32,000 nt of DNA from Vulcanisaeta distributa DSM 14429 (GTDB lineage: Archaea; Thermoproteota; Thermoprotei; Thermoproteales; Thermocladiaceae). The stretch is from contig NC_014537.1 in NCBI RefSeq assembly GCF_000148385.1, positions 1,200,001-1,232,000 of the forward strand, given 5' to 3'. This document shows positions 1,623-29,376 of the stretch, piece by piece (position 1 is the stretch's first letter; each line of letters begins with the position of its first letter). The position numbers and the translations under genes were made by a program. The notes under the pieces are model-generated. The model saw only the letters and a program-made list of their open reading frames with translations. It made no database searches and was not told the DNA's origin.

Positions 1623-2762
1623 ATGCGTGTTAGTGAGTTAAGAAGAGGTGGCACCCGTGGTTCTGGGTATGTTTACGTTCTCATTGGTAATGAGCTTGTT
1701 CATGTTTCCGAGGTCGGTAAACTCGTTAAGCATGATGGTGATGAGTACGTATATGAAATACCGAGCAATATCCCGTCCTGGATATTCATATTTCACTTCA
1801 GTAGGAGTGGTTATGGCAGTGTCACTAGGTGCCCACTTGGTAATTACGTAAATACGGTGGACTATACAAAGTGTGAGAGTAAAGCTATCGAGGATGCGGT
1901 AAATGATTGGTTAAGTGATGTTAATTTCAGAATAAAAAATCCTAAGTTGAGGGGTCTCTTGAATGAGTTATTTAGTGAGTTCGTGATAATGGCTAATGAA
2001 GCAAGGAGTTATTGGGGGTTGATTGGTGGTGAGTTGAGGTTCATGGGTCATGCCTCTAGACTTAGTGAATTTTTCAATAATCCAAGGATTTACTACTTCA
2101 CCGAATTAAGCATACCGAGTGATACAGGTAGAATTAGGGGAATTAAAACAACGATGTCCCTAATCTACGAGAATTGGATCGCCGCAAAGGTTGCCGAGGC
2201 GTTGGGTACGAGGAGTTTGATAAGGAGAAGTTGGGAAGCGAATGAACCATTCATTAATATGCCAGTGACTGTTTGGTTTGAGCAGGGTGGTGAAACTAGC
2301 TTTGCAATACTCAATACGCCACATGGCGATTTCACAATGTGGCTTGAATTCCAAGTAAATCCAGCGATACATGTCTTTCCAAATCTCAAATCAATCATGG
2401 CTAATAACAAGATCGTAATACCAACCAAGCATGGTAGAAGGGCTGTTAGGCCTGACGTTGTTATTGCCAGGGGTAAGTTTAATGGCATTAATGATCTGAT
2501 TAAGTCGGGCGGCGGGATTGACTTCTTGATTGAGTGTAAGGCGTTGCCTTACGAGGATTGGGAGAGTGACGTTGATGAGCAGGTTATACCGTACGTCAAG
2601 CAATTTAGGCCGAGGAAAACGATGCTCATTGTTCGCTATGCCGTGCCGAATAACGTGAAGGAAAAATTAAGTAATAATGGAGTTGAGGTTATTGAGGATG
2701 TAAGGCCGGGAGGGAAGGGCGTTAGTAAGCTCGTGAATGCTATAAACAGTGCAATTACGTAA
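1623..2762 (+). CDS. Hypothetical protein with C-terminal PD-(D/E)xK nuclease-like motifs
   Basis: 379-aa ORF. Ordered motif set: helix LIYENWIAAKVAEAL (E183), RPDVVI (D278), LIECK (E304, K306). This is the order and spacing typical of restriction-endonuclease-fold (McrC/Mrr-like) domains. The N-terminal 170 aa were not recognised. Confidence 0.7.
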   Translation: MRVSELRRGGTRGSGYVYVLIGNELVHVSEVGKLVKHDGDEYVYEIPSNIPSWIFIFHFSRSGYGSVTRCPLGNYVNTVDYTKCESKAIEDAVNDWLSDVNFRIKNPKLRGLLNELFSEFVIMANEARSYWGLIGGELRFMGHASRLSEFFNNPRIYYFTELSIPSDTGRIRGIKTTMSLIYENWIAAKVAEALGTRSLIRRSWEANEPFINMPVTVWFEQGGETSFAILNTPHGDFTMWLEFQVNPAIHVFPNLKSIMANNKIVIPTKHGRRAVRPDVVIARGKFNGINDLIKSGGGIDFLIECKALPYEDWESDVDEQVIPYVKQFRPRKTMLIVRYAVPNNVKEKLSNNGVEVIEDVRPGGKGVSKLVNAINSAIT

Positions 2763-2814
2763 GCATGACGGCACTGTGAATATTTAAATTTAGGACCTAG
2801 GCTTTAACCTTTGT

Positions 2815-3300: not shown

Positions 3301-3392
3301 AATAATAACGAAATGAAAAATGAGGACGCAAAATACAATTAATGGAGTACAGAACCGATATATGGCATTTGGAACTGAGGTTTATCCCTGCG

Positions 3393-3441: not shown

Positions 3442-3451
3442 CCGTTGGTTA

Positions 3452-4609
3452 TTACTCGCTGGGTGGTCCTCCGCGTAGTCTACCTTTCCTCTTTATGTCT
3501 CTTATTCTGTTTATCTCTCTTTCAATTCTCTTGATCAAGGTCTCGAAGGCGTACCTAACAGCGTTTACTGGGTCCCAGTCAACCTCGTTGACTGTGTACG
3601 TGTTTGCGTTGTCCTTGAGCATTATATGGACTGAGTACTTACTCCTCTTCTCCTCACCTCCCTTCTCATACTTCTTAATGTTTATTTTAACGTCAATTAC
3701 GTTTGTCATCCTATTTATCTTAGCCATGTAGTTCGAAATCACCTTCTCAACTAACGGCTTAACATCCTCATCAATCTCGGTGAGCTTAGCCTCAATGGGT
3801 ATCTCCTCATAAGGTTTAAGTACGGACCTTATCACGTCATAACTAGAGACAACCCCCGTCACGGACTCCCCTGAAATCACGGGCATTCCGGAAATGCCCT
3901 TATCAAGCATTAAATTAACTACAGTATAAACATCGTCGGTTTCATTAACGGTGACCGCCGGCGTGGTTGCTATTGCCTTCACGGGGGCCGCGAGTATGTC
4001 ATCCTCAGTACCAACCACATCACCCCTCCTGCTGCGTCGTGGTATTGATGCGTAGTATAATCGCTCGACTATGTCGCGCATTGAAACTATGCCGTAAAGC
4101 TTCCCTGAATCAAGCACTGGGAGGCGTGTTATTCCATGCCTTATCATGAGCCACTTAGCCCTCGCCACAGCTTCATTGGCATCAATTGTAATTGCCGGCT
4201 TAGACATCACGGATGAGACCGATGTGCGGGGTAGCATTCTATTATCAAGTAGGTACTTTAGTATCTTCTCCCTTGTTAAGATGCCGACAAGGCTCATGCT
4301 CGAGTCAACCACGGGCAATGCCCTAACCCTTAGAGTTAATACCTTGGACATTGCCTTAACGAGGTCTGAGTCCTGGCTTATTGAGTACGGTGGTGACATG
4401 GCGCTTGAGACCTTTGCTCTGAGACTAACTCTTCGCTCAAGCAAATCCCTGTAGCTCAAGACGCCCACTAATTTACCGTTCTCATTAATGACCGGGACAA
4501 CCCAAGCCTTATAATCCCTCATGTCCGAAATTACCTTAGAAATAATATCCTTGGGCTTTGCAATAACTACTACGTTATCCATGAGTTCACTGACCAATGG
4601 TGTACTCAT
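3452..4609 (-). CDS. Four-CBS-domain (two Bateman modules) protein with C-terminal HPF/RaiA (S30AE)-like domain
   Basis: 385 aa. Four CBS repeats, each with a hydrophobic-x-PV(V/I/L) core plus G(I/V)(L/V)(S/T)xxD(I/L/V): VVPVINENGKLVGVLSYRDLL, ALPVVDSSMSLVGILTREKIL, RLPVLDSGKLYGIVSMRDIV, GMPVISGESVTGVVSSYDVI. The C-terminal 105 aa (IEAKLTEIDEDVKPLVEKVISNYMAKINRMTNVIDVKINIKKYE...YSVHIMLKD..TYTVNEVDWDPVNAVRYAFETLIKRIEREINRI) follow the beta-alpha-beta-beta-beta-alpha pattern of bacterial HPF/YfiA. Confidence 0.85.
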   Translation of the reverse strand: MSTPLVSELMDNVVVIAKPKDIISKVISDMRDYKAWVVPVINENGKLVGVLSYRDLLERRVSLRAKVSSAMSPPYSISQDSDLVKAMSKVLTLRVRALPVVDSSMSLVGILTREKILKYLLDNRMLPRTSVSSVMSKPAITIDANEAVARAKWLMIRHGITRLPVLDSGKLYGIVSMRDIVERLYYASIPRRSRRGDVVGTEDDILAAPVKAIATTPAVTVNETDDVYTVVNLMLDKGISGMPVISGESVTGVVSSYDVIRSVLKPYEEIPIEAKLTEIDEDVKPLVEKVISNYMAKINRMTNVIDVKINIKKYEKGGEEKRSKYSVHIMLKDNANTYTVNEVDWDPVNAVRYAFETLIKRIEREINRIRDIKRKGRLRGGPPSE

Positions 4610-4685
4610 CAGGGAGTTAATTTGTAAGGCCCTTTAATAATTTAATTGGGTTATAGTTTTATAGGAGGCGCTGAGTTGTGGCGTG

Positions 4686-5138
4686 ATGGATTGCCAACAA
4701 GCCATTAACAATGTAATACCTGTTATCCATAACCCAGCCAGTGTGCAGAAGTTGCTGGATGCGGTAAAGGTCTCACTTGGCTTTGGCTTAAGGACCATAG
4801 TGGTCACTAAGGCCGTGGGCACAGCGGCTCAGCAGGGTGTGCCTGAGGCCTTTAGGCTTGTGCTCAGGTCTGGGGCTACATTGATTGTACTGCCTGACAT
4901 TAAGGATGCAGTTGAGCTCCTTCACCCAGATGCAGTATACTTCCTGAGCACCAGGGGTGATTCCATGGGTAATGAGGTTAAAGGTAGGGTATTGATCGTG
5001 ATACAGGCGTCTGACCAACCATTTATGCAGAGTGAGTTGAACCTGGGACGGCAGATTAAGGTTGTTGGTAGGGATGTGGGTAGTACTGCATTACTAACAT
5101 TGGCACTTAACAAGTTACTTGGGCAATGCGTTGAATGA
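4686..5138 (+). CDS. SPOUT-fold-like small protein (COG4080/DUF531-like; tentative)
   Basis: About 150 aa. The C-terminal VLIVIQASDQPF...VVGRDVGSTALLTLALNKL resembles the knotted C-terminal motifs of SpoU/TrmH-type proteins. Its stop overlaps the nuoA start (ATGA at 5135-5138). GTG 4683 is an alternative start. Confidence 0.5.
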   Translation: MDCQQAINNVIPVIHNPASVQKLLDAVKVSLGFGLRTIVVTKAVGTAAQQGVPEAFRLVLRSGATLIVLPDIKDAVELLHPDAVYFLSTRGDSMGNEVKGRVLIVIQASDQPFMQSELNLGRQIKVVGRDVGSTALLTLALNKLLGQCVE

Positions 5139-5578
5139 GGTTACTACTTAAAAATGCCTCATTGCTAATACTCCTGGTCACGATGTCAGCCTTCATTGAT
5201 GCGTTAGCGATATTGATAGTACTCGTGGTGATAGCCCTTATAACTGATGCTGCAATAATGTACGTAGCAAGAAGAATCGCAGCAAGAAATCCAAATGTCT
5301 CAAAGTTGCAGAGGTATGAGGCTGGTAATCCACCTGTTGGTGAGGCTAGGTACGTATTCCCAATACAGTATGTGGGCTTCCTACTCATGTTCCTTGGTAT
5401 GGAGCCGATCATAGTTATATTACTAATTCTATCATCGGTGGCGGTCATGGCACTGCCAATAATTTATATAATATTGGCGATATTAGTAATAACCCTACCA
5501 AGTATCTATGTCGGTTATAAATACGCACTAAAAATGGCGTATCCCAAAGAATTTATAAGAAGGTCAAGCGGTAGGTGA
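5135..5578 (+). CDS. nuoA: NADH-quinone oxidoreductase subunit A
   Basis: Three TM segments and the conserved loop KLQRYEAGNPPVGEARYVFPIQYVGFLLMFLGMEPII, a NuoA/ND3 signature. Directly upstream of nuoB/C. The true start may be an internal Met. Confidence 0.85.
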   Translation: MRLLLKNASLLILLVTMSAFIDALAILIVLVVIALITDAAIMYVARRIAARNPNVSKLQRYEAGNPPVGEARYVFPIQYVGFLLMFLGMEPIIVILLILSSVAVMALPIIYIILAILVITLPSIYVGYKYALKMAYPKEFIRRSSGR

Positions 5579-6846
5579 CGCGAATGTCACTTGACAAAGC
5601 ATTAGAGCCCTACAAGAAGTGGGGTACGAAATATTCCCTATGGCCGGTGCACCTCGTAACGGCATGCTGCGGCGTCGAGATGGCACACACCTGGAACCCA
5701 ACCTATGATGCCGAGAGGCTCGGCTCGCTGCCATGGCATGCCCCAAGGCAGACAAACCTAATCCTTGTTGAGGGTACAATAACCTTCAAGATGGCTAGGG
5801 TCCTCAGATATGTTTGGGAGCAAATGAGCGATCCAAAGTACGTAATTGCAATGGGCTCCTGCGCAGCTGAGGGTGGTATATTCTGGAATAGCTACCACGC
5901 GGTCCCCGTTAATAAAATAATACCGATTGACGCATACGCCATAGGCTGCCCACCGACGCCAGAGGCCGTTATTCAAATGATTAAGATAGTCCAAAGGAAG
6001 ATAGAGACGGGCGAGGCCAGGGCGAACGTTAAGCCAAAGACCATAGACCTAACAAAGATCTTCACACCATCACCAACAAAACAACCGGCGCCAAACCCAC
6101 CACATAGGATAACCCCCAACCCGCACATACCTGTTTGTCAGGAGAAGAAGGTGGAGTGGCCCTTCGGTTATGAGTTAATTAATAATCAATTAATGCCCGC
6201 ACTCAAGGAGTCAGCAAAGAAAATAATCGTAACAGACATTAATAGAATATGCGTTGATACAGAGCCCAATAAGTTAAGGGACGCCGCATTATCATTGTCA
6301 AAGCTCGGCTTTGACCATGTTAAGTCGGTTAATGTTATTGATGTGCCTCACGAGAATAAGTTCTACGTCGAATACTGGGTCTCGAGCTATAGCAAGAAGG
6401 AGCTAATGCCCATACTCATTTCATTGACGACGGAAATACCGAGGGATAACCCCAGGGTACCAAGCCTAATGGATATTTGGCCGAGCGCTGATTACATGGA
6501 GCGCGAGATGTATGACTTCTTCGGTGTTTGGTTTGAGGGTAATCCATGGATGGGTAGGAACTTCCTACTCGACCCAGACACCCCAGTTAAGTTCCCGCTT
6601 AGGAAGGACGTACCAATAGTTAGGGAGTTCTACATAGTCGATAGGGAGTTCCCTGGACTACCCGTGGCGCCACCACAGCCAAAGCCGGCAGCGGCGCCGC
6701 AGAAACCAGCCCAAGCACCAGCCCAACCAAAGCCTGCACAGCAAGCCCCACAGCCAAAGCCCGCTGAGACCGCACAGCCACAGGTAAAACCTGCCCAGGA
6801 AAAACCAAGTGAAGGTAAGCAGGAGACGGGCGGTAGCACCGGGTGA
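5575..6846 (+). CDS. nuoBC: Fused NADH-quinone oxidoreductase subunits B and C with Pro-rich linker and PQK-rich C-terminal tail
   Basis: NuoB part: WPVHLVTACCGVEM, GSCAAEGG, GCPPTPE (N2 cluster cysteines). Linker: TPSPTKQPAPNPPHRITPNPHIP. NuoC part: GFDHVKSVNVIDV, WPSADYMEREMYDFFGVWFEGNP, FPLRKD. One uninterrupted frame of 423 aa. Confidence 0.9.
   Translation: MTRMSLDKALEPYKKWGTKYSLWPVHLVTACCGVEMAHTWNPTYDAERLGSLPWHAPRQTNLILVEGTITFKMARVLRYVWEQMSDPKYVIAMGSCAAEGGIFWNSYHAVPVNKIIPIDAYAIGCPPTPEAVIQMIKIVQRKIETGEARANVKPKTIDLTKIFTPSPTKQPAPNPPHRITPNPHIPVCQEKKVEWPFGYELINNQLMPALKESAKKIIVTDINRICVDTEPNKLRDAALSLSKLGFDHVKSVNVIDVPHENKFYVEYWVSSYSKKELMPILISLTTEIPRDNPRVPSLMDIWPSADYMEREMYDFFGVWFEGNPWMGRNFLLDPDTPVKFPLRKDVPIVREFYIVDREFPGLPVAPPQPKPAAAPQKPAQAPAQPKPAQQAPQPKPAETAQPQVKPAQEKPSEGKQETGGSTG
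6655..6843 (+). repeat. Low-complexity coding repeat (Pro/Gln/Lys/Ala-rich tail of NuoBC)
   Basis: Encodes PVAPPQPKPAAAPQKPAQAPAQPKPAQQAPQPKPAETAQPQVKPAQEKP. The DNA string ccacagccaaagcc occurs twice and the cca/gcc-rich codons are iterated. Confidence 0.8.
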
Positions 6847-8123
6847 TGGGCATGGGTAGTAATGAGAAGTATGCAGAGTTGCCCGTTAGGATGGAGGTGC
6901 CTGAGGAGTTTGTTAGGAATTTCGTACCGATACCAAAGGAGTACGTTGAGGAGGCATACAGGAGTGATGAGTACCTGGTCTTCATTGGTCCTCAACACCC
7001 AGGGAGTGGACACATGAGGATAATACTCAGGCTTAAGGGTGACTACATAGTTGATGCAATACCGGACCCGGGCTACGTCCACAGGGGCGTGGAGAAGCTT
7101 GCCGAGACTAGGCTATACATACACATATTACCGCTCATCGAGAGACCTACGATTCAGGACTCAGCAAACTTTGACCTCGGTTACTCACGTGTGGTGGAGA
7201 AGCTGGCTGACCTAGACGTGCCCAAGAGGGCTCAGTACATTAGGGTTATACTGGCTGAGCTGAGTAGGATAGCCACACACCTATACGATACTGGAATACT
7301 CGCAGTATTCATTGGTCACAGCACGGGGTACATGTGGGCCTTCGGGCTTAGGGATGTGATTAATGAGGCCTTCATAAGGATTACTGGCACGAGGACGACG
7401 CTTAGCTATACAGTGCCAGGTGGCGTTAGGTGGGATGTTAAGCCTGAGGTCCTTAACTTTGTGTATGAATTAACGAATTACCTGGAGAGGAAGATGAGGG
7501 ACATGGAGTCGATATTCGTTAAGAACCCGGTGACGATACATAGGCTTAAGGAGGTTGGCGTACTAACGAAGGAGGAGGCTATTAAGTACGGTCTTGTCGG
7601 CCCATTCCTTAGGGCGTCAGGTGTTGAGTATGATGTTAGGAAGGTTGAGCCGTACGAGGTGTATAATGAGTTTGAGTGGGACATACCGGTGGCTGATGAT
7701 GGTGATTCATACTCGAGGTTCCTGGTTAGGGTTGAGGAGATTAGGCAGAGTATTAAAATAATTAGACAAGCCGTCAAGAATATACCAGACACACCAATAA
7801 TAAGTGAGAAACTACTCTCAAGAATACCGCCAAAGGATAGGCCGCAGGCTGCCAAGGACATTAGGACATTCCTAACAAAAACTCATGTGGGATTAACACC
7901 AGGCGCTGGCGAGGCGACAACATTGACAGAGGCCTCAAGAGGACTACTACTGTTTACATTAATATCTGACGGGCATAGTAACGTGCCGTACAGGCTAAGG
8001 ATGGTCACACCATCATGGCTACTGCTCAGAGGATTCATGGAGGCACTAAAGGGCTACAGGCTAGCGGATGTACCAGCCATATATGGAAGTTTTGGCTACT
8101 TCCCGCCGGAGGCTGATAGATAA
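6843..8123 (+). CDS. nuoD: NADH-quinone oxidoreductase subunit D
   Basis: 426 aa. FIGPQHPGSGHMRIILRLKGDYIVDAIPDPGYVHRGVEKLAE and C-terminal IYGSFGYFPPEADR are classic NuoD/49-kDa signatures. The start overlaps the nuoBC stop. Confidence 0.95.
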   Translation: MMGMGSNEKYAELPVRMEVPEEFVRNFVPIPKEYVEEAYRSDEYLVFIGPQHPGSGHMRIILRLKGDYIVDAIPDPGYVHRGVEKLAETRLYIHILPLIERPTIQDSANFDLGYSRVVEKLADLDVPKRAQYIRVILAELSRIATHLYDTGILAVFIGHSTGYMWAFGLRDVINEAFIRITGTRTTLSYTVPGGVRWDVKPEVLNFVYELTNYLERKMRDMESIFVKNPVTIHRLKEVGVLTKEEAIKYGLVGPFLRASGVEYDVRKVEPYEVYNEFEWDIPVADDGDSYSRFLVRVEEIRQSIKIIRQAVKNIPDTPIISEKLLSRIPPKDRPQAAKDIRTFLTKTHVGLTPGAGEATTLTEASRGLLLFTLISDGHSNVPYRLRMVTPSWLLLRGFMEALKGYRLADVPAIYGSFGYFPPEADR

Positions 8124-8393
8124 TTATGAAATTAAGTCATGAGAAAAATTAAAATTTCTTAACCTATCGAGAGGGCTACGGACACGCTTTCTGTGGGATT
8201 AAGTGATTGGATGTTTAATGGGTGGGCAGTGTTTACGTGCTATAAGTATTATAAGTATAAGGTTTATGAGGCTAAATTGAGTGTGAATAATTTAATGCCC
8301 TGCATTGATAAGGTTAGGGCATTGGTTAGAGAGACTGAAAATGCATTAAGTCGGTAAGGTTCAGGAAGTAACTGCAAACCTTGCTCATTAGTG

Positions 8394-8402
8394 CTTTATA
8401 TA
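8394..8402 (+). promoter_or_regulatory. TATA-box-like element (CTTTATATA) upstream of the NurA-like gene
   Basis: Lies inside the longest ORF (GTG 8391), about 29 nt upstream of in-frame ATG 8427. This argues for a leaderless start at 8427. Confidence 0.45.
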
Positions 8403-8426
8403 CCTCCCTGTAATCAATGCCTTGAG

Positions 8427-9623
8427 ATGTTACCTAGTGATTATGGGCCTGGAGATATTGAGTTTTGGATTGAACCTCCATTACTACTTTCCATACAATC
8501 AGATGTGAAGAAAATGCTTGATGAAGGTGTTGATTCGCAGATACTTACCCTGGTCCGTGAGTTAAGGAGGGTTATTGAGGATAGAGGCTTGATTAAGGGT
8601 ATTGGTTCATCGACGAAGGCCTTTAATGCTTATGCAATCGATTCGAGCTACCCGACCCCACCTCTTGAGCTCATTGGTGGTGTCATGACTGTGCTCTCCT
8701 ATGGCTATGTGGGTTACCTTAACGGTTCATATGATAGGTATATGACTGGTGAGGTTGTTTTTGAGGATGTAAGTGAATTTGAGAGGGTGATTACTAGGAG
8801 GGCTCAGGTCAGGGAGAGGGAGTTGGCAATTAAGCTTCTTCGTGATAAGGCCAGGGGTAGGAAGGGGGTTGACCTGGTGATACTTGATGGCGAAATACCA
8901 GTACACCCGCTACCGTATAACTTACCAGTTGAGGGCGGCGTGCTTGCTCGCGTTACGAATGTGGTTGGCGATCTACTAGAATTGGCTATGAAGACTAAGA
9001 CGCCGATTATTGGTGTTGTTAAGAGGGTTAGGTCCAGGTTTCTCTCGGTATTAACCAATGAGTGCTTGCCAATGAATGATAAACTTATTGCAAGCTTGGT
9101 CCTAAATAACGGCGAGTACATGGTGCTTGGGAACTACGGTGATATATTGCCCCAGTGGCTTCGGATAAACTATGGCGATTGTGAGTTAAGGAAAAGGTGC
9201 AGGGGTGGAAAGTGCGACGACATTAGAGATTTGATGAGTAGGAGACTTAGTGAGGGTTTGGTAAACCTTGAGAGGGTATTTAGCGGATCTACTCACCCTG
9301 GCTTGAAGATGCTTCGTGACATATACGTAGTATTTTATAAGCCACGTAATGGTGCACCCGCGGTTAAGCTTGAGGTCTTTAATCCAAGTGATGGGGTGAG
9401 TGTTGAGGAGTTGGTGGCGTATCTTGAGTCGCAAACCACGGATACTGGTTACCCATTCCTGCTTGATAGGGTTGATGAGTATGTTAGACTCGACCCCAGG
9501 ATACTGGATTATGTGAGGAGCTTATTAATTAAGGATTCAAAGGATTTAAATCCAGCACTGTTAACCATGCTACAATTGACAAATCCACAAAAGGCCTACT
9601 TAGTGAGGAGACTTGAGGCGTGA
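8427..9623 (+). CDS. NurA-domain nuclease-like protein (stand-alone, no HerA neighbour)
   Basis: NurA-like motif series: AYAIDSSYP (acidic motif I), VDLVILDGEIP, IIGVVKRVRSRFL (the G-V-x-K-x-S type strand). The maximal ORF starts at GTG 8391 (410 aa). I prefer ATG 8427 because of the TATA position. Confidence 0.65.
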   Translation: MLPSDYGPGDIEFWIEPPLLLSIQSDVKKMLDEGVDSQILTLVRELRRVIEDRGLIKGIGSSTKAFNAYAIDSSYPTPPLELIGGVMTVLSYGYVGYLNGSYDRYMTGEVVFEDVSEFERVITRRAQVRERELAIKLLRDKARGRKGVDLVILDGEIPVHPLPYNLPVEGGVLARVTNVVGDLLELAMKTKTPIIGVVKRVRSRFLSVLTNECLPMNDKLIASLVLNNGEYMVLGNYGDILPQWLRINYGDCELRKRCRGGKCDDIRDLMSRRLSEGLVNLERVFSGSTHPGLKMLRDIYVVFYKPRNGAPAVKLEVFNPSDGVSVEELVAYLESQTTDTGYPFLLDRVDEYVRLDPRILDYVRSLLIKDSKDLNPALLTMLQLTNPQKAYLVRRLEA

Positions 9624-9681
9624 TTTCAGGTTTATTTTGGTGAGCTATCTTTAATAACTGGAAAGTAGGGTTGTCATCGTA

Positions 9682-10098
9682 ATGAGGATTGGCATTAGGA
9701 TGAGGGGCTTGATAATAAAGGTTTCTGTATTTTTGTCATTGGCAATAGCCGCTGTTGTGGGTATACGATTCGTCAGCCCCGTCCTTGCGCCAATAATAAT
9801 TCTCATACTACTTATACTAGTAATCCTCCTTAATAAGTTAATAAATAGAAAGTTAGCCAGCATGTGGGGTCCGCAATTATTGAGTATTGATAATTACGCA
9901 ATCTATGAAAAGGGCATATACGTGAAGCCAATGGACGCATTCTATCCATGGAGTGAATTAATCATGGTACGTAATGACCAATCAATAATAACGTTTGTGT
10001 TTAATGACGGCACTGAGATCTCATTATCGGAAAGCATTATTGAGAGTTTACGGGGTTGTCCCTGCATTAACAGAATTGATAATGCAGTGGGTAAATAA
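9682..10098 (+). CDS. Membrane protein with two N-terminal TM helices and a small beta-rich (PH-like?) C-terminal domain
   Basis: 138 aa. TM segments VSVFLSLAIAAVVGIRFV and VLAPIIILILLILVILL. The C-terminal YAIYEKGIYVKPMDAFYPWSELIMVRNDQSIITFVFNDGTEISL resembles bacterial PH-like domains (weak). Confidence 0.55.
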   Translation: MRIGIRMRGLIIKVSVFLSLAIAAVVGIRFVSPVLAPIIILILLILVILLNKLINRKLASMWGPQLLSIDNYAIYEKGIYVKPMDAFYPWSELIMVRNDQSIITFVFNDGTEISLSESIIESLRGCPCINRIDNAVGK

Positions 10099-10139
10099 TA
10101 AATAGTACTAATCCAGTACTAAGGAACGGTGATTCCTCA

Positions 10140-11465
10140 TTGCGGAGGGTAATAATACTGGGTGCAGGCGGTCGAGACCTCCACGTATTTAACATGTACT
10201 TCAGGCATAACCCAGAGTATAAGGTCGTGGCAGTCGCCCAGGTTCAAATACCCGGTATTGGCGGTAAGCGGTACATTAAGGGTGCCGGAGACCTTTATCA
10301 ACCAGGCGGTATACCACTTATTGGCCTTAAGGATCTTGAGGATCTCGGTCGGTTAATAAGGGATTTGGGCGCTGACGAGGTTGTCCTAGCCTACAGTGAC
10401 CTGCTATATAATGATGTTGGTAGGATAATAAGCATCGTGCTAGCAAACGGCGCAAGCTTTAGTATTCTTGGTCCTAGGGATACCATGATAAAGTCCTCAA
10501 AGCCCATGATTGGCGTGGTGGCTACGAGGACCGGTGCTGGTAAATCAACTGTCTCGCATGAGGTAACGCTTGAGCTTGTTAAGAGGGGGTTGAAGGTTGC
10601 AGCGATTAGGCATCCAATGATTTACATGAACCCTGATGACATGATGGTGCAGATCTTCAGGACTAGGCAGGATTTGATGAAGATAACGTTTGAGGAGAGG
10701 GAGGAGTACGAGCACTACATAGACATTGGCGTGCCTGTACTAGCTGGTGTTGATTATGAGATGATCCTCAATGAAGCTGAGTCCATGGCTGACGTATTGC
10801 TATGGGATGGTGGCAATAACGACTTCCCATTCTACTATACCGATTACTTAATAACAGTTACTGACGCCAGGAGACCGGGACATGAGGTTGGTAGCTTCCC
10901 TGGCGAGGTTAATACAAGGCTTGCTGATGCTGTGATAGTTACTAAGGTCTCTGACTCAACCCCTGAGAATGTTAAGACTGTAATTAGTAATATTAAGGCC
11001 GTAAACCCAAGGGCATCAATAACACAGGCAGATCTTGAGGTTTATTTAGACAATCCAAATGCCGTGGCTGGTAAGAAGGTCGTAATCATCGAGGACGCCC
11101 CAACAGTAACGCATGGTGGTTTACCATACGCGGCAGGATACATAGCTGCCAAGAAGTACAATGCTGAGATAGTGGATCCAAAGCCATACGCCGTGGGCAT
11201 AATAAAGGAGACCTACGCAAAGTACACGCACATGGGACCAGTACTACCAAGCCTGGGCTACACCCCAGAGCAGATTAAGGATTTAGAGGAGACCATAAGG
11301 AGGATACCCGCTGATGTAGTAATCATGGGTACCCCAGCCCACATTGAGGATGTTGTTAAGATTGATAAGCCCATAGTTAGGGCTAAATGGAGGCTCAAGA
11401 TCCTTGAGGGACCAACGGTGAGCCAATTAATTGATGAATTCCTTGAGCGTGTGAAACTTAAGTAG
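10140..11465 (+). CDS. COG2403-type P-loop protein (predicted GTPase / cyclic 2,3-diphosphoglycerate synthetase-like family)
   Basis: 441 aa with a TTG start. N-terminal VIILGAGGRDLHVFN, Walker A VVATRTGAGKST and LLWDGGNNDFPF fit my memory of the COG2403 family. Function in crenarchaea is not established. Confidence 0.65.
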   Translation: MRRVIILGAGGRDLHVFNMYFRHNPEYKVVAVAQVQIPGIGGKRYIKGAGDLYQPGGIPLIGLKDLEDLGRLIRDLGADEVVLAYSDLLYNDVGRIISIVLANGASFSILGPRDTMIKSSKPMIGVVATRTGAGKSTVSHEVTLELVKRGLKVAAIRHPMIYMNPDDMMVQIFRTRQDLMKITFEEREEYEHYIDIGVPVLAGVDYEMILNEAESMADVLLWDGGNNDFPFYYTDYLITVTDARRPGHEVGSFPGEVNTRLADAVIVTKVSDSTPENVKTVISNIKAVNPRASITQADLEVYLDNPNAVAGKKVVIIEDAPTVTHGGLPYAAGYIAAKKYNAEIVDPKPYAVGIIKETYAKYTHMGPVLPSLGYTPEQIKDLEETIRRIPADVVIMGTPAHIEDVVKIDKPIVRAKWRLKILEGPTVSQLIDEFLERVKLK

Positions 11466-12181: not shown

Positions 12182-13096
12182 TCATACTTCACGAGCCCTC
12201 GACTTATCGTAAGACTCCCACAGCTCATCCACGTTGAAGCTATAGACCTTACTTAACGTCACACTACGCCTCAGGTATAGGTGCAGGTCGAGCTCATCGG
12301 TGAACCCTATACCTCCATGTACCTGGATACTGTCCCTAATCGTATTTGGGATAATCCTTGATGCGTAGTCCAACGCCATGGGCGCTAGCTTCAAGTCATC
12401 GGCAGCCCTTAGGTATAGTGACCTGGCGAGCTCTATGTTAAGTGCCATGTTCACCAATTTATGTTTCACGGCCTGGAATGCACCTATTGGTCTACCGAAG
12501 GCAATCCTCTTCTTTGCGTAATCCACCGATAACTCAAGCGGTGGTTTACCGGTACCAACTATGGCTGCGGATAGTAGGAGCGCTACTAAGTCTCTATTCA
12601 CACCTACCTTAGTACTCCTCCTAAAGTTGACTTGGCACCACCTCATCGAGTTATCGAAGGAGTTCAGCGGCTTTACCGAGGCATCATCCTTCCAGATTAG
12701 GTTATCGCCAATTACTATGACGTCAGCCCTATGCGCCTCGGGCGCCATATTTGCGGTGCTTGATATCGATATTTTCAACTTACCCTCATACTTCTCATCA
12801 CCTAATTCATTACCCGTGGCTACGGCGCCTATTATTGTCGTTATGACAATACCAGGCGGAAGCCTTGAGCTCACCTCCTCCATCAGTATTGCTGCATCCC
12901 TCGGCTTGGCGTCCCTGAAGAATTCAAACAATCCAAAATTCACCAAGGCCTTCCATAATTCATCAAGTACTGATGTATCGCCTTCACTATAACTCCTTAG
13001 TTTGGCGGTTGACCATACCTTATTGAAGAGTTCATTCAGATTGTTCAGTATTATTTTCAGTTCCTCATTTAAGTAATCCTTAATGCCGATAATCAT
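12182..13096 (-). CDS. Acyl-CoA dehydrogenase-like protein, short form (putative non-FAD beta subunit)
   Basis: The C-terminal ACAD helical domain is clear (KRIAFGRPIGAFQAVKHKLVNMALNIELARSLYLRAA, IQVHGGIGFTDELDLHLYLRR). The protein is only about 304 aa and lacks the GFSEPxxGSD-type middle-domain motif. ATG 13094-13096 sits 1 nt after the upstream ACAD stop. The ORF track's 13135 start looks like an extension. Confidence 0.8.
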   Translation of the reverse strand: MIIGIKDYLNEELKIILNNLNELFNKVWSTAKLRSYSEGDTSVLDELWKALVNFGLFEFFRDAKPRDAAILMEEVSSRLPPGIVITTIIGAVATGNELGDEKYEGKLKISISSTANMAPEAHRADVIVIGDNLIWKDDASVKPLNSFDNSMRWCQVNFRRSTKVGVNRDLVALLLSAAIVGTGKPPLELSVDYAKKRIAFGRPIGAFQAVKHKLVNMALNIELARSLYLRAADDLKLAPMALDYASRIIPNTIRDSIQVHGGIGFTDELDLHLYLRRSVTLSKVYSFNVDELWESYDKSRAREV

Positions 13097-13097
13097 A

Positions 13098-14231
13098 CTA
13101 AACACCCTTTGGAAGCCCAAGCACGAGCTCTCCAAGGAGGTTACGCAGGATTTCAGAAGTGCCGGAGAGTATTGTATAGCCCTTACTATCTATATACCCA
13201 AAAGACCACTCGAATAAATCACCCTCAGCAAGAGCCTCGGGACCCAGCTTCGACACCGCCGCTATGTATATCTTCTCGAGAACCTCGGACGCCAACAACT
13301 TTATTGAAGCAGCCTCGGGCCCTACCATCTCACCCCTCAGTGCGAGCATGAGCATTCTATCATAAAGCTCCTTAACTGCCAGCGCCTCCTCGAGGAGCGC
13401 CAACGTATCCGCATCGCGCCTCACCTCCACCAGGTGCCTAGCGGCACTTGCTGCGGCGTAGGCGAAGGCGCCGCCTATGTTCAGTCTCTCGAAGTTCAGG
13501 GTAGTCATGGCAACCCTCCAGCCATCACCAACTTTACCAACCACGTTATCCTTGGGAACCTTAACATTATCTAGGAAGACCTCACTAAATCCAGGCCTGC
13601 CGTTAATCTGCTTTATCGGTCTATAGGTAATCCCCTCAGACCTGGTGTCTACGATAAACATCGTTAAGCCCTTATGCCTTTCCTCAGGTGAGCCAGTCCT
13701 AGCGAGCACTAGGTAGTAATTAGCCAAGTGGAAGTCGCTACTCCAGACCTTCCTACCATTCAGTACAAAGTAATCACCCCTATCCTCAGCCTTGGTGGTT
13801 ATTGCCGCCAAGTCCGAGCCGCAGCACGGCTCGGAGAAGCCCTGGGCCCAGACATCCTCACAAGTCAATATCCTCCTTAAATACCTCCTTTTCTGCTCTT
13901 CACTGCCATGAAACAGAATGGCGGGGCCCGCCACGGATAAGCCAATTCCTGGACAGCCGGGGTAGACAATACCGAGACTAAGCGCCACATCCCTAACTAC
14001 TAACTCCTTCCTTACGTCATCGCCATACCCACCATACTCCTTAGGCCAACTTATGCCGACTAAGCCGGCATTATATAATGTCCTGTGCCACCTAACGGCG
14101 GCATCAATGAACCTAGGGTCCTCATAGTACCAACCAATACCACCACGCCTAATCCTCATCTCAGGAGGAGCATTCTTAATAAACCAATCCTTAACGTAAT
14201 CCCTAAACCTCTCGAGTTCCGACTCAGACAT
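13098..14231 (-). CDS. Acyl-CoA dehydrogenase (putative alpha subunit)
   Basis: 377 aa with all three ACAD domains: HGSEEQKRRYL, WAQGFSEPCCGSDLAAITTKAEDRGDYFVLNGRKVWSS, C-terminal TILSGTSEILRNLLGE. The canonical catalytic Glu of the YEGT motif is replaced by Ser (LSGT). Confidence 0.9.
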   Translation of the reverse strand: MSESELERFRDYVKDWFIKNAPPEMRIRRGGIGWYYEDPRFIDAAVRWHRTLYNAGLVGISWPKEYGGYGDDVRKELVVRDVALSLGIVYPGCPGIGLSVAGPAILFHGSEEQKRRYLRRILTCEDVWAQGFSEPCCGSDLAAITTKAEDRGDYFVLNGRKVWSSDFHLANYYLVLARTGSPEERHKGLTMFIVDTRSEGITYRPIKQINGRPGFSEVFLDNVKVPKDNVVGKVGDGWRVAMTTLNFERLNIGGAFAYAAASAARHLVEVRRDADTLALLEEALAVKELYDRMLMLALRGEMVGPEAASIKLLASEVLEKIYIAAVSKLGPEALAEGDLFEWSFGYIDSKGYTILSGTSEILRNLLGELVLGLPKGV

Positions 14232-14360
14232 ATAACATTATTAGTTATTAGTTAATTGACTCTTAATAAACATTACCTCATCATTAATCATAATAATGTA
14301 AAGCGATCATACCATCAATATCCACAGCATGGTTTTATAGTAATATATCTATCAATTCAT

Positions 14361-14386
14361 AATCAATAATAAACGAATCAATAATA
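14361..14386. repeat. 11-bp direct repeat AATCAATAATA x2 in the divergent promoter region
   Basis: Exact copies at 14361-14371 and 14376-14386 within the about 200-bp AT-rich spacer between the ACAD operon (-) and the acyl-CoA synthetase gene (+). Candidate operator. Confidence 0.4.
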
Positions 14387-14433
14387 TGTACTTTCGAGAA
14401 AAACTTAAATAATTTTTATTTATAATAAATTCA

Positions 14434-16200
14434 ATGAATGAGCAGATCCAGCAACAACATAAGTATAATACAGAAGAAGAAGTCTTTAATGAAATTATAC
14501 CTGGCTACCAATTAACTATTGACAAAATACTCAAGACAGGCATAACGCTATTTCCCAATAATGAAATTGTTTATTGGCCTCCAAATGGCCGTAGGCTCCA
14601 CTTCACATTTAAAGAATTTAATGAAAGGGTTAACAGGCTTGGTTGGGTCCTTAAGGAACTCGGCGTAATTAGTGGTGACCCAAGGAGAATGGGTACGAGG
14701 GTTGCCATATTTGATTGGAACACGCATAGATTCCTTGAATTGCTATATGCAGTGCCCATGTACGGTGCAGTGCTCCAACCAGTTAACATTAGGTTGGCGC
14801 CTGAGGAGATCATCTACGTGATGAATAAGTCCAGGGACGAGGTAGCCTTTGTAAATGCTGACTTCCTACCATTGATAAAGGCGATAGCCCCAAAGCTTGA
14901 GTACCTAAGGAAAATAGTCGTTATGCATGATGGTGAGGAGCCGATAAAGATTGAGCGCATTAGCAATGCTGAGGTATACGATTATGAGGAGTTAATGAAG
15001 GAGGCCAGGGAATTCAACTACCCGGAGGAGCTTGATGAGAGGACTGTCATGGTGATGATGTACACCTCAGGCACCACAGGGTTGCCCAAGGCAACGATAT
15101 TTAGGCATAGGGAGATAGTACTGCATGCAATCGCCGTATTAATAATCGCAGTGTGGAATTGGTACCCAGCGCATTACCTAAGGTTCACTAGGAATGCCTA
15201 TAACCCACTCGGTGAGCCATCGCTTCTCCTTGTACCATTCTACCACGTGCTCGGTTGGGGAGCGCCGTACTATAACATCATGGGCGGTACACCGAAGATA
15301 GTACTGCCGGGTAGGTATGAGTGGAACCATATTATTAGGTTGATTAAGGAGGAGAAGGTAAAGAATGCGGGTGGCGTGCCAACAATGTTGTACCTAATGT
15401 TGAACAGTCCTGAGCTCAAGGACGTGGACCTAAGGGGGTTCCTATGGAGTCTTGGTGGTGCGGCGGCTACCAAGGGGTTAATTGAGGAGGCCAGGAAGAG
15501 GGGCGTGATATTGACTAATGGTTACGGATTGACGGAGACGGCACCGGTTGTTATAGCGCCTACACTGTCGCCGGACCTAATAATGAACCTAAGCGAGGAG
15601 GAACTACAGGAATTAGTGGTCAACAGCATTGGAAAGCCCCTACCATTTGTCCAGGCCAGGGTGGTTGATGAGGAGGGTAGGGATGTGCCTAAGGATGGAA
15701 AAACCGTGGGCGAGCTGGTGCTGAGGGCTCCCTGGATAACCCTGGGCTATTACGGAGACCCAGAGAAAACAAGGGCTGCCTTCAAGGATGGTTGGTTCCA
15801 CACCGGGGACTTGGCAACGTGGGATGAGAGGGGGTTCATATACATTGTAGATAGGGCTAAGGACGTTATCAAGAGTGGCGGTGAGTGGATATCAAGCCTT
15901 AAACTTGAGAGCTTAATATCACTCCACCCAGCGGTTGCGGAGGTGGCAGTCATAGGCGCTACGCATGAGAAGTGGGGTGAGAGGCCCGTGGCCATTGTCG
16001 TGCTGAGGCCAGAATTCAAGGGCAGGGTTAAGGAGGAGGATATCATAAATCACGTGAGGACGTTCGTTGATGAGGGCGTTATACCGAAGTGGTGGGTGCC
16101 TGACAAGGTGATATTCGTTGATGAGCTTCCAAAGACCGGCGCGGCCAAGATCGATAAGAAGGTGCTTAGGGATAGATATAGAGATGTATTGATTAAGTAA
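14434..16200 (+). CDS. AMP-dependent acyl-CoA synthetase/ligase (fatty-acid-CoA ligase family)
   Basis: 588 aa with adenylate-forming motifs MMYTSGTTGLPKA, GYGLTETAP, WFHTGDLATWDERGFIYIVDRAKDVIKSGGEWIS and a C-terminal PKTGAAKIDKK. Confidence 0.9.
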   Translation: MNEQIQQQHKYNTEEEVFNEIIPGYQLTIDKILKTGITLFPNNEIVYWPPNGRRLHFTFKEFNERVNRLGWVLKELGVISGDPRRMGTRVAIFDWNTHRFLELLYAVPMYGAVLQPVNIRLAPEEIIYVMNKSRDEVAFVNADFLPLIKAIAPKLEYLRKIVVMHDGEEPIKIERISNAEVYDYEELMKEAREFNYPEELDERTVMVMMYTSGTTGLPKATIFRHREIVLHAIAVLIIAVWNWYPAHYLRFTRNAYNPLGEPSLLLVPFYHVLGWGAPYYNIMGGTPKIVLPGRYEWNHIIRLIKEEKVKNAGGVPTMLYLMLNSPELKDVDLRGFLWSLGGAAATKGLIEEARKRGVILTNGYGLTETAPVVIAPTLSPDLIMNLSEEELQELVVNSIGKPLPFVQARVVDEEGRDVPKDGKTVGELVLRAPWITLGYYGDPEKTRAAFKDGWFHTGDLATWDERGFIYIVDRAKDVIKSGGEWISSLKLESLISLHPAVAEVAVIGATHEKWGERPVAIVVLRPEFKGRVKEEDIINHVRTFVDEGVIPKWWVPDKVIFVDELPKTGAAKIDKKVLRDRYRDVLIK

Positions 16201-16262
16201 TGAAAATAATTATTCTCATTAAGAATTAAAAATAAATTTATTCCTATTAATCAGGGTAATTT

Positions 16263-17420: not shown

Positions 17421-17421
17421 T

Positions 17422-17763
17422 ATGGAGCTCGAAGAATTACTGAAGGAGTACAATAGAATCTATGAAAATGGGTTAGTGCCAATAACACGGTGCAGGGCAT
17501 GCGGCTATAAGTTCCACATGCCAAGGACCAGGTGCCCCAGGTGCGGCTCAACGAATCTAGAAGTTATTGGCTACGGCGAGGGCACCATCTACTCATACAC
17601 AATAATAGAGAGAGGATTGCCAACAAGGACAGTAGTCGTTCTCGCAGACCTCGATGGAGCCAAGGTTAAGGCGAATTACGTTGGTGATTTGAATGCGCTG
17701 AAGATAGGGGCTAGGGTCAGGGTTGTTAGGAGGGATGGTAATATATACTTTACAAATTATTAA
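17422..17763 (+). CDS. DUF35 protein (rubredoxin-like Zn ribbon + OB fold), thiolase-fold partner
   Basis: 113 aa from ATG 17422, 1 nt after the upstream stop. CRACGYKFHMPRTRCPRCG Zn ribbon, then OB-fold strands GTIYSYTII...VVVLADLDGAKVKANYVGD...GARVRVV. The ORF-track start at 17329 is an overlapping extension. Confidence 0.85.
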   Translation: MELEELLKEYNRIYENGLVPITRCRACGYKFHMPRTRCPRCGSTNLEVIGYGEGTIYSYTIIERGLPTRTVVVLADLDGAKVKANYVGDLNALKIGARVRVVRRDGNIYFTNY

Positions 17764-17849
17764 ATAGCAATACATTTATTATATATGAAAATATATTAAG
17801 AGTAAAAATACACCTAATATTTACATTTACGGGTACTTCTACTGATTAT

Positions 17850-29296: not shown

Positions 29297-29376
29297 GCAT
29301 TAATATGAACAGGCATAAGTAATTAGATGGGTAAGTTATTTAATATGGCGCACATTATCCATAGTGGGGTTAAGAC

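What the first reader, a model, noticed from the sequence alone, without database searches (positions are those of the whole stretch)
3452..4609. CBSx4 fused to an HPF/RaiA-like domain: candidate nucleotide-sensing ribosome hibernation factor
**Seen**
- Four CBS repeats are followed by a 105-aa C-terminal domain.
- Its pattern is beta1 IEAKLTEIDED, helix VEKVISNYMAKINR, strands VIDVKINIKKYE / YSVHIMLKD / TYTVNEVDWD, helix PVNAVRYAFETLIKRIEREINRI, then a basic tail.
- This aligns by eye with E. coli YfiA/HPF.

**Established knowledge**
- HPF/RaiA domains occupy the 30S decoding region.
- CBS pairs bind adenosine nucleotides.

**Inference**
- This is an energy-charge-gated ribosome silencing factor in an archaeon.
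- I vaguely recall recent structural reports of CBS-containing archaeal hibernation factors but cannot verify them here.
Basis: partly seen in the sequence, partly recalled or inferred. Interest (0 to 1): 0.65.

Follow-up and report, generated by a model that had tools for sequence, protein, structure and literature searches.

The report
Known archaeal ribosome hibernation factor (HibA/AHA)

Summary
The 385-aa ORF at 3452..4609 (minus strand) is real. [quoted passage not shown]

- **HPF domain:** the single-sequence Pfam S30AE match is sub-threshold (20.8 vs 23.7 bits). A profile of the C-terminal domain alone recovers about 30 solved HPF/RaiA/YfiA chains (E down to 1.8e-6). An AlphaFold model of that domain hits only HPF/RaiA/pY structures in the top 27 Foldseek ranks.
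- **Family:** the full-length profile aligns end to end with Pyrococcus abyssi HibA (PDB 9sr9_H, E=4.6e-70), a hibernation factor whose ribosome complexes were solved by cryo-EM. This alignment includes the extended CBS3 loop that enters the peptidyl-transferase centre. The ribose-binding aspartates of CBS3 and CBS4, where homologues bind AMP/ATP, are conserved.
- **Prior publication:** HibA (bioRxiv 2025; Nat Commun 2026) and AHA (bioRxiv 2026) already report this family in about half of archaeal genomes.

"Energy-charge gating" remains unproven even for the characterised homologues.

Side note: in part of the Thermoproteota the gene is paired divergently with a COG4080/DUF2122 predicted SPOUT methyltransferase.

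The parts
3452..4609 (-). Complete gene (385 codons plus stop) for a HibA/AHA-family ribosome hibernation factor
   Evidence: ORF list. Full-length orthologues at 72-92% identity in Vulcanisaeta. Family profile matches P. abyssi HibA 9sr9_H, profile 3-376 vs chain 5-383, E=4.6e-70.
4430..4597 (-). CBS1 (approx. residues 5-60; motif GVLSYRD, G49 invariant)
   Evidence: Pfam CBS x4; AF2 secondary structure; column counts. Boundaries are approximate, taken from the model.
4244..4414 (-). CBS2 (approx. residues 66-122; motif GILTREK, with Lys in place of the ribose-binding Asp)
4052..4222 (-). CBS3 (approx. residues 130-186; motif GIVSMRD; D179 conserved in 67/71 homologues)
   Evidence: Best Pfam CBS stretch 131-184; conservation. 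Homologues bind AMP/ATP at the CBS3/CBS4 interface (PMC13324472; PMC12934967).
3986..4051 (-). Extended loop after CBS3 (residues 187-208, ASIPRRSRRGDVVGTEDDILAA). It is the equivalent of the HibA 'PTC loop' / AHA 'loop 3', which inserts into the peptidyl-transferase centre.
   Evidence: Aligns to P. abyssi HibA 190-207. Loop of 21-27 residues in nearly all 71 homologues, with conserved R192, E202 and LAAP. Low pLDDT at 189-195, as expected for a loop that orders only on the ribosome.
3812..3985 (-). CBS4 (approx. residues 209-266; motif GVVSSYD; D258 conserved in 63/71)
3500..3802 (-). [quoted passage not shown]
   Evidence: Pfam PF02482 at 282-369, 20.8 bits. 55/71 homologues hit PF02482 at E<=0.01. 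The C-terminal-only profile hits about 30 HPF/RaiA PDB chains, E down to 1.8e-6. AF2 domain model has pLDDT 82. Foldseek top 27 hits are all HPF/RaiA/pY, with target-normalised TM-score up to 0.77.
3455..3499 (-). Basic C-terminal tail (residues 371-385, DIKRKGRLRGGPPSE, net charge +3)
   Evidence: Direct reading. [quoted passage not shown] The role here is inferred.
4633..4647 (-). A/T-rich TATA-like element (AATTAAATTATTAAA), 24-38 nt upstream of the ATG. It is a candidate archaeal promoter for a leaderless or short-leader transcript.
   Evidence: Direct reading. This is inference only: there is no transcript data and the promoter tool does not cover archaeal promoters.

Best explanation

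By homology to the cryo-EM structures of P. abyssi HibA and H. volcanii AHA, the mechanism is inferred as follows:
- The C-terminal HPF/RaiA domain sits in the mRNA/tRNA channel of the 30S subunit, at the decoding centre, overlapping the A and P sites. Its basic tail points towards the mRNA exit channel.
- The N-terminal CBS tetrad docks on the 50S subunit. Its extended CBS3 loop can insert into the peptidyl-transferase centre.
- One polypeptide therefore bridges both subunits, blocks mRNA and tRNA binding, and keeps idle 70S ribosomes assembled and protected during stationary phase or stress.
- The CBS3/CBS4 pockets most likely bind AMP, and more weakly ADP/ATP. This could tie the factor to energy status, but how or whether binding controls engagement or release is not known.

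Shown here: domain architecture, homology, fold, and conservation of the loop and nucleotide-site residues. Inferred: ribosome binding, translation inhibition and nucleotide binding by this particular protein.
For: - Four CBS domains plus an S30AE-like C-terminus.
- The family profile aligns collinearly over the whole length with HibA 9sr9_H (E=4.6e-70) and with a second solved full-length homologue, 9l96_a (E=6.6e-56).
- The C-terminal-only profile finds the HibA C-terminal domain (E=1.6e-6) and bacterial HPF/RaiA/YfiA chains.
- 55/71 homologues match PF02482.
- Foldseek: the C-terminal domain hits only HPF/RaiA/pY in the top 27. The CBS tetrad hits MJ1225, SriA, Dri and AMPK-gamma with target-normalised TM-scores up to 0.83.
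- The CBS3 loop is present and aligned to the HibA PTC loop.
- D179 and D258 are conserved in 67/71 and 63/71 homologues.
- Experimental basis for the family: PMC13324472 and PMC12934967.
- Some sources already name homologues 'CBS domain-containing protein/ribosome-associated translation inhibitor RaiA'.
Against: - Nothing was measured on this protein. Function rests entirely on homology at about 26% pairwise identity to P. abyssi HibA.
- Pairwise BLASTP aligns only the CBS part, not the C-terminal domain.
- The single-sequence Pfam S30AE score is below the gathering threshold. Single-sequence phmmer of the C-terminus against the PDB is not significant (E=0.23).
- The full-length Foldseek search did not list HibA itself, probably because the Foldseek library ends 2026-04-08.
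- The gene neighbourhood shows no translation-related operon.
Confidence: 0.9

Rival explanations
1. Same protein family, but the adenine-nucleotide state of the CBS tetrad is the actual on/off switch. This is the first reader's 'energy-charge gate': AMP-bound factor engages ribosomes and ATP binding releases it.
For: - The ribose-binding Asp of CBS3 and CBS4 is conserved.
- The HibA CBS module binds AMP (Kd 12 uM) more tightly than ADP (65 uM) or ATP (113 uM) (PMC13324472).
- Two AMP molecules are seen in ribosome-bound AHA (PMC12934967).
- ATP-triggered release is reported for the related CBS-only ARC complex (10.64898/2026.01.19.700304).
Against: - In reconstituted HibA:70S complexes, 5 mM AMP or ATP did not change occupancy, and changed the conformational classes only marginally.
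- Native HibA:ribosome complexes showed no bound nucleotide.
- The HibA authors state that no clear effect was observed.
Confidence: 0.35
2. A CBS-tetrad regulatory protein whose main role is not on the ribosome. Examples would be a transcription regulator like HhpR (CM-3 family), or a nucleotide-dependent partner of replication/recombination proteins, with the C-terminal domain acting as a generic RNA- or protein-binding module.
For: - HibA was pulled down with replication/recombination proteins in Thermococcales (discussion of PMC13324472).
- Lower Foldseek hits of the C-terminal domain include dsRBD folds (E about 3e-3 to 1e-2, query-normalised TM about 0.4).
- There is a weak NCBIfam hit to HhpR (45 bits).
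Against: - The HhpR hit is far below its cut-off (45 vs 520 bits).
- The CBS module is collinear with HibA, including the PTC loop.
- HPF structures outrank dsRBDs by E-value and TM-score.
- A standalone CBS regulator would not retain a conserved HPF domain across 70+ homologues.
Confidence: 0.05
3. A chance ORF or a decaying pseudogene.
For: Two draft Vulcanisaeta assemblies show the orthologue split across reading frames (L004, L014), and one deposited protein is truncated (P0020, 315 aa).
Against: - The reading frame is intact in the window.
- Intact 385-aa orthologues exist in many independent genomes and metagenomes.
- Domain scores are strong and the models are confident.
- The frameshifts are confined to low-quality draft assemblies and are most simply sequencing errors.
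Confidence: 0.01

Closest known systems
HibA (Pyrococcus abyssi PAB0961, PDB 9SR9-9SRF; Thermococcus barophilus). Madru et al., Nat Commun 2026, PMC13324472
   Same: The architecture is identical: a CBS tetrad at about residues 1-269 and an HPF/RaiA domain from about 270 to the end, in a protein of 385 vs 392 aa. The profile alignment is collinear (E=4.6e-70). Shared features are the extended CBS3 'PTC loop', the conserved CBS3/CBS4 nucleotide-site Asp residues and a basic C-terminal end.
   Different: Pairwise identity is only about 26% and is detectable by BLASTP only in the CBS part. The source is a crenarchaeon (Thermoproteota) rather than Thermococcales. No experimental data exist for this orthologue.
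AHA (AMPKgamma-HPF from Archaea; Haloferax volcanii HVO_2384). Souza et al., bioRxiv 2026, PMC12934967
   Same: This is the same family under another name: an N-terminal CBS tetrad on the 50S with loop 3 in the PTC, and a C-terminal HPF domain on the 30S. AMP binds at the CBS3/CBS4 junction, and the matching Asp residues are conserved here.
   Different: AHA comes from a different phylum and has an acidic haloarchaeal composition. I did not have the AHA sequence, so no direct alignment was made.
Bacterial HPF / RaiA (YfiA, protein Y) / plastid pY (Pfam PF02482, Ribosomal_S30AE)
   Same: [quoted passage not shown] By homology it binds at the same 30S decoding-centre site.
   Different: Here the domain is the C-terminal part of a fusion to a CBS tetrad. 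The single-sequence score is below the Pfam gathering threshold. The last helix is longer and the beta2-beta3 loop is longer. There is no long-HPF dimerisation domain, so no 100S-type mechanism is expected.
Dri (Pyrobaculum calidifontis, PDB 9E6Q/9E7F)
   Same: Dri is also a CBS-tetrad hibernation factor of Thermoproteota that contacts both subunits. Its N-lobe CBS tetrad is a structural match (Foldseek E=8e-18).
   Different: Dri has two CBS tetrads and no HPF domain (655 aa). The tetrad binds the 50S in a different orientation (PMC12934967). This ORF has one tetrad plus HPF.
SriA-D / ARC-P and ARC-A (Methanosarcina, Methanolobus)
   Same: These are CBS-tetrad ribosome-silencing proteins with AMP sites. 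They are close structural matches (9znf_4 with target-normalised TM-score 0.83).
   Different: They are standalone CBS tetrads with small occlusion elements, act as pairs of separate proteins and have no HPF domain.
AMPK gamma subunit / MJ1225
   Same: They share the CBS-tetrad disc with Asp-containing adenine-nucleotide sites. The pattern of three Asp-bearing sites and one site lacking Asp (CBS2) resembles AMPK-gamma.
   Different: There is no kinase partner and no HPF domain in AMPK-gamma. The similarity is limited to the sensor module.

Membership tests
HibA/AHA archaeal hibernation factors | N-terminal module of four tandem CBS domains (two Bateman modules) | tested here: met
   Pfam CBS, 4 stretches, E=4.9e-46. 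AF2 model with pLDDT above 90 over most of residues 1-268. Foldseek target-normalised TM-score 0.83 to the CBS tetrads MJ1225 and SriA.
HibA/AHA archaeal hibernation factors | [quoted passage not shown] | tested here: met
   Topology in both AF2 models. The C-terminal-only profile hits HibA 286-383 (E=1.6e-6) and about 30 HPF/RaiA chains. Foldseek top 27 hits are all HPF/RaiA/pY.
HibA/AHA archaeal hibernation factors | Collinear full-length homology to a structurally characterised member | tested here: met
   Profile of 71 homologues vs 9sr9_H: profile 3-376 aligned to chain 5-383, 239.9 bits, E=4.6e-70. Also 9l96_a, chain 1-392, E=6.6e-56.
HibA/AHA archaeal hibernation factors | Extended loop in the third CBS domain (PTC loop / loop 3) | tested here: met
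   Residues 187-208 align to P. abyssi 190-207. The loop is 21-27 residues long in nearly all 71 homologues, with conserved R192, E202 and LAAP.
HibA/AHA archaeal hibernation factors | Adenine-nucleotide site(s) at the CBS3/CBS4 interface | tested here: inconclusive
   Sequence motifs are present: GIVSMRD with D179 (67/71) and GVVSSYD with D258 (63/71). Actual binding cannot be tested here.
HibA/AHA archaeal hibernation factors | Two archaeal-specific insertions in the HPF domain (after the first strand; between the second and third strands) | tested here: inconclusive
   The Pfam match spans 88 residues against 79 profile positions. The beta2-beta3 loop is 9 residues here and 6-13 in most homologues. 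No residue-level structural alignment to HibA or E. coli RaiA was possible.
HibA/AHA archaeal hibernation factors | Binds 30S decoding centre and 50S; inhibits translation; preserves 70S in stationary phase | not testable with these tools
   Requires biochemistry, cryo-EM or genetics. Known only for P. abyssi, T. barophilus and H. volcanii members (PMC13324472, PMC12934967).
Bacterial-type HPF/RaiA (Pfam PF02482 Ribosomal_S30AE) | Score at or above the Pfam gathering threshold | tested here: not met
   20.8 bits vs the 23.7 cut-off for this sequence. Homology is nevertheless supported at the family level: 55/71 homologues at E<=0.01, best 1.1e-7, and profile vs PDB. It is a divergent archaeal branch, not a canonical bacterial HPF.
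Dri | Two CBS tetrads (N and C lobes), no HPF domain | tested here: not met
   This protein has one tetrad plus an HPF domain in 385 aa. Dri is 655 aa.
Sri / ARC standalone CBS-tetrad factors | Single CBS tetrad with a small occlusion element and no HPF domain, acting as a two-protein set | tested here: not met
   An HPF domain is present. There is no second CBS-tetrad gene in the 32-kb window.

The most novel reading that the evidence does not exclude
In a subset of Thermoproteota the hibA gene is kept in a divergent, promoter-sharing pair with a COG4080/DUF2122 gene, a predicted SPOUT-fold RNA methyltransferase of unknown target. The pair persists down to 37% HibA identity and in at least three otherwise different genomic contexts. 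The most novel reading not excluded is that the two form a functional module, for example co-regulated rRNA or tRNA modification and ribosome hibernation, or a modification that tunes HibA binding in lineages with unusual ribosomes.
Probability: 0.1. Interest if true: 0.45.

Novelty: already known. Interest (0 to 1): 0.15.

Why it matters
The family matters. It shows that the HPF hibernation module is shared by Bacteria and Archaea, and it links the module to an AMPK-gamma-like nucleotide sensor. That discovery has already been published by two groups in 2025-2026.

The value of this locus is practical:
- The Vulcanisaeta protein and its relatives are still annotated only as "CBS domain-containing protein" and can be renamed HibA/AHA.
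- It adds a hyperthermoacidophilic crenarchaeal member that could be used to test whether nucleotide state controls ribosome release.
- It could also help test how HibA relates to Dri, the other CBS-based factor of Thermoproteota.

Tried and rejected
- **C-terminus alone vs PDB:** single-sequence phmmer of the C-terminal 119 aa gave only E=0.23 to an HPF chain. A profile was needed.
- **Full-length Foldseek:** the search was dominated by CBS tetrads (AMPK-gamma, MJ1225, Sri, Dri) and did not list HibA or HPF. The likely reasons are that the library stops at 2026-04-08 and that the large tetrad drives the alignment. This was resolved by modelling the C-terminal domain separately.
- **Pairwise BLASTP to P. 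abyssi HibA:** the sequence was recovered from the alignment. BLASTP aligned only the CBS part at 26% identity.
- **Genome scan:** the 71-sequence alignment was too diverse for the search for related loci. A narrower alignment worked, but its search patterns were CBS motifs, so loci L018-L080 are generic CBS proteins and were ignored.
- **PDB 9L96:** a literature search for this entry found nothing, so the origin of that full-length solved homologue is unknown to me.
- **DUF2122 neighbour vs PDB:** the sequence search gave only noise.
- **HibA supplement:** the held part confirmed that Vulcanisaeta moutnovskia was in the surveyed genome set, but no per-genome presence/absence table was found.
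- **Operon with translation genes:** rejected. The flanking genes are a hypothetical membrane protein, DUF2122 and nuo genes.
- **HhpR-like transcription factor:** considered and rejected (45 vs 520 bits).
- **Not tested:** whether Vulcanisaeta also encodes Dri.
Full report
**1. The observation**

The ORF is present exactly as described. It runs from 3452 to 4609 on the minus strand, starts with ATG and encodes 385 aa. The ORFs that overlap it on the plus strand are short and have no support.

Pfam finds four CBS stretches (E=4.9e-46). It also finds a Ribosomal_S30AE (PF02482) match at residues 282-369 with 20.8 bits and E=6.8e-4, just below the 23.7-bit gathering score.

AlphaFold2, run on an alignment of 71 homologues, gives a confident model (mean pLDDT 86.5). 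It shows four CBS units followed by strand 273-276, helix 284-301, strands 304-314, 324-333 and 337-344, and helix 347-379. [quoted passage not shown] The last 15 residues (DIKRKGRLRGGPPSE) carry a net charge of +3.

**2. Origin of the window**

The closest proteins are "CBS domain-containing proteins" of Vulcanisaeta spp. Identity is 92% to Vulcanisaeta sp. JCM 16161 and 72% to V. thermophilus. Loci from V. distributa and other Vulcanisaeta genomes share the same gene order. The window therefore comes from a Vulcanisaeta archaeon (Thermoproteota, Thermoproteales). Aragorn found no tRNA genes in the window.

**3. Is the C-terminal domain really HPF/RaiA?**

The single sequence is borderline. 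The isolated C-terminus against PDB sequences gives only E=0.23 to an HPF chain. I therefore cut the C-terminal domain out of the family alignment, realigned 36 diverse copies (A2) and searched the PDB with that profile. This profile contains no CBS residues.

- It finds the C-terminal domain of PDB 9sr9_H (residues 286-383, E=1.6e-6).
- It finds T. thermophilus HPF (1.8e-6), S. aureus, Listeria and B. subtilis HPFs, E. coli YfiA/RaiA (2.9e-5) and E. coli HPF (3.3e-5).
- About 30 HPF-family chains appear before the first unrelated protein (KRas, E=0.3).
- Of the 71 full-length homologues, 55 hit PF02482 individually at E<=0.01 (best 1.1e-7).
- A separate AF2 model of the domain (pLDDT 82) was searched against the PDB with Foldseek. 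The top 27 hits are all HPF, RaiA/protein Y, plastid pY/PSRP1 or mycobacterial MPY. Target-normalised TM-scores reach 0.77 for V. cholerae HPF and 0.74 for E. coli HPF.

That criterion was tested and is not met, so the claim stands.

**4. Which family?**

The profile of the 71 full-length homologues matches PDB 9sr9_H from end to end. Profile positions 3-376 align to chain residues 5-383 with 239.9 bits and E=4.6e-70. The chain is deposited as "Dehydrogenase" and is 392 aa long.

Entries 9SR9-9SRF belong to Madru et al. (Nat Commun 2026, PMC13324472; the text names 9SRE as the reference HibA-PTC structure). That paper describes HibA of Pyrococcus abyssi as four CBS domains (residues 1-269) linked to an HPF/RaiA-like domain (270-392).

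- The C-terminal domain sits in the 30S mRNA/tRNA channel.
- The CBS module takes three positions on the 50S: at the PTC, at uL5 and at the L1 stalk. A loop at residues 190-207 inserts into the peptidyl-transferase centre.
- HibA inhibits translation in vitro. Its deletion in T. barophilus reduces 70S pools and delays recovery from stationary phase.
- The family was found in 47% of archaeal genomes. The surveyed genome set included Vulcanisaeta moutnovskia.

An independent preprint (Souza et al., PMC12934967) describes the same family as AHA in Haloferax volcanii. It reports two AMP molecules at the CBS3/CBS4 junction and 3,160 homologues in 17 archaeal phyla. A second full-length solved homologue, 9l96_a (406 aa), also aligns end to end (E=6.6e-56). 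I could not find its publication.

**5. Family-specific features in this ORF**

- *PTC loop.* Residues 187-208 (ASIPRRSRRGDVVGTEDDILAA) follow CBS3 and align to the P. abyssi loop 190-207. The RGDVVGTE stretch lies opposite YGELAGEK. The loop is 21-27 residues long in nearly all homologues, with conserved R192, E202 and LAAP. It is the only internal low-confidence stretch of the model (pLDDT below 50 at 189-195), as expected for a loop that orders only on the ribosome.
- *Nucleotide sites.* The G-h-h-S/T-x-x-D motif carries Asp in CBS1 (D55, 29/71), CBS3 (D179, 67/71) and CBS4 (D258, 63/71). CBS2 has Lys at that position. The strong conservation of the CBS3 and CBS4 sites agrees with where AMP/ATP were seen in HibA and AHA.
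- *Basic tail.* It is present.
- *Archaeal-specific insertions in the HPF domain.* This could be assessed only indirectly. The Pfam match covers 88 residues against 79 profile positions, and the beta2-beta3 loop is 9 residues long. I leave the point as inconclusive.

**6. Mechanism**

The mechanism is inferred by homology and is not shown for this protein. The HPF domain would plug the decoding centre and mRNA channel of the 30S. The CBS tetrad would occupy tRNA space on the 50S, with its loop in the PTC. The single chain would staple the two subunits into an inert, protected 70S.

The CBS3/CBS4 pockets probably bind AMP preferentially. For HibA the measured Kd values are 12 uM for AMP, 65 uM for ADP and 113 uM for ATP. 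Whether this binding gates anything is open:

- Native HibA-ribosome complexes contained no nucleotide.
- Saturating AMP or ATP barely changed the conformational classes.
- Ribosome-bound AHA did contain AMP.
- For the HPF-less ARC complex, ATP is reported to trigger release.

I put the "energy-charge gate" at about 0.35.

**7. Relatives that this protein is not**

- Dri (Pyrobaculum) has two CBS tetrads and no HPF domain.
- SriA-D and ARC-P/A are standalone tetrads with small occlusion elements.
- AMPK-gamma and MJ1225 share only the sensor disc.
- HhpR-type transcription factors are excluded by score (45 vs 520 bits).

**8. Surroundings**

The gene stands alone. Downstream, and convergent, lies a 161-aa predicted membrane protein with no Pfam match. 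Upstream, 73 bp away and divergent, is a 151-aa DUF2122 protein (PF09895, E=1.1e-29), followed by nuoA, a fused nuoB/C gene and nuoD. An A/T-rich TATA-like element lies 24-38 nt upstream of the ATG. This is my inference only.

The hibA-DUF2122 divergent pair recurs in three settings:

- in all Vulcanisaeta loci examined;
- in more distant Thermoproteota loci (L008, L010, L011, L013), where HibA identity is 47-50% and DUF2122 identity is 30-34%;
- in a further lineage at 37-39% HibA identity, with different outer neighbours (SurE, TatD, Lon), and next to nuo genes at 57% identity.

The pair is absent from Sulfolobales- and Desulfurococcales-like loci, from Ignisphaera, from a Micrarchaeia genome and from several others.

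COG4080 carries the same "RecB-family nuclease" label as DUF2122. It was reclassified as a predicted SPOUT-fold methyltransferase of unknown specificity (PMC1829167). Equating DUF2122 with COG4080 is my inference from the shared annotation. The pairing is a lead, not a finding.

**9. Verdict**

The object is an ordinary, previously unannotated orthologue of a family already published by two groups, so the novelty rating is "already known" and interest is low (0.15). The practical outcome is an annotation upgrade from "CBS domain-containing protein" to HibA/AHA-family ribosome hibernation factor.

Noticed in passing
window 4683..5138 (+); also L001-L004, L008, L010, L011, L013, L014, L083-L086, L089: The divergent upstream neighbour is a DUF2122 protein (PF09895, labelled 'RecB-family nuclease'). 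This appears to correspond to COG4080, which was reclassified as a predicted SPOUT-fold RNA methyltransferase of unknown target (PMC1829167). The divergent hibA-DUF2122 pair is conserved down to 37% HibA identity in at least three different outer contexts. It is absent in Sulfolobales/Desulfurococcales-like loci, Ignisphaera and Micrarchaeia.
   Followed up: partly
window 5575..6846 (+): NuoB (Oxidored_q6) and NuoC (Complex1_30kDa) are fused in one 423-aa ORF. It ends in a roughly 60-residue Pro/Ala/Gln/Lys-rich low-complexity tail (…PPQPKPAAAPQKPAQAPAQPKPAQQAPQPKP…). It lies in a nuoA-nuoBC-nuoD cluster at 5135..8123.
   Followed up: no
window 1623..2762 (+): This 379-aa ORF has no Pfam match. 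It is only about 48-55% identical in Vulcanisaeta sp. JCM 16159 (L004), while the flanking genes there are 74-97% identical, so the gene evolves fast or is variable. Its C-terminal part contains a D…E-x-K-like motif ('IDFLIECK'), which by eye resembles a PD-(D/E)xK nuclease.
   Followed up: no
L004 (Vulcanisaeta sp. JCM 16159) 4001-5154; L014 (V. distributa JCM 11216) 4001-5248: In these draft assemblies the hibA orthologue is split over two or three reading frames, and the deposited protein P0020 is truncated to 315 aa. These are most likely sequencing frameshifts rather than pseudogenes.
   Followed up: partly
window 4595..4609 (-): Start-codon ambiguity. One database entry (P0001, 381 aa, 100% identical) starts at the TTG of codon 5 instead of the ATG at 4609. 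Most orthologues are 385 aa and cover the query fully, which favours the ATG.
   Followed up: partly
window 8391..11465 (+): A NurA-domain protein (410 aa) is followed by two ORFs (138 and 441 aa) with no Pfam match. No HerA, Mre11 or Rad50 was recognised next to it in the scans done.
   Followed up: no
window 12182..19043: A fatty-acid beta-oxidation-like cluster. It contains two acyl-CoA dehydrogenase genes (minus strand), an AMP-binding acyl-CoA synthetase, a thiolase plus a ChsH2-like zinc-ribbon/OB (DUF35-type) partner, and a 3-hydroxyacyl-CoA dehydrogenase.
   Followed up: no
window 28295..30903 (+): A MoxR-type AAA+ ATPase (AAA_5/AAA_3) is followed by a VWA-domain protein (DUF58/VWA), the usual MoxR-VWA pair. 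Upstream on the minus strand is a Clp1-type P-loop kinase (26459..27775).
   Followed up: no
L019 (Candidatus Hadarchaeota MAG) about 1100-5000: Several CBS-tetrad genes lie in tandem on one contig, shown by multiple overlapping tblastn hits to the CBS module. This resembles the CBS-module gene clusters reported in about 10% of archaeal genomes (PMC13324472).
   Followed up: no
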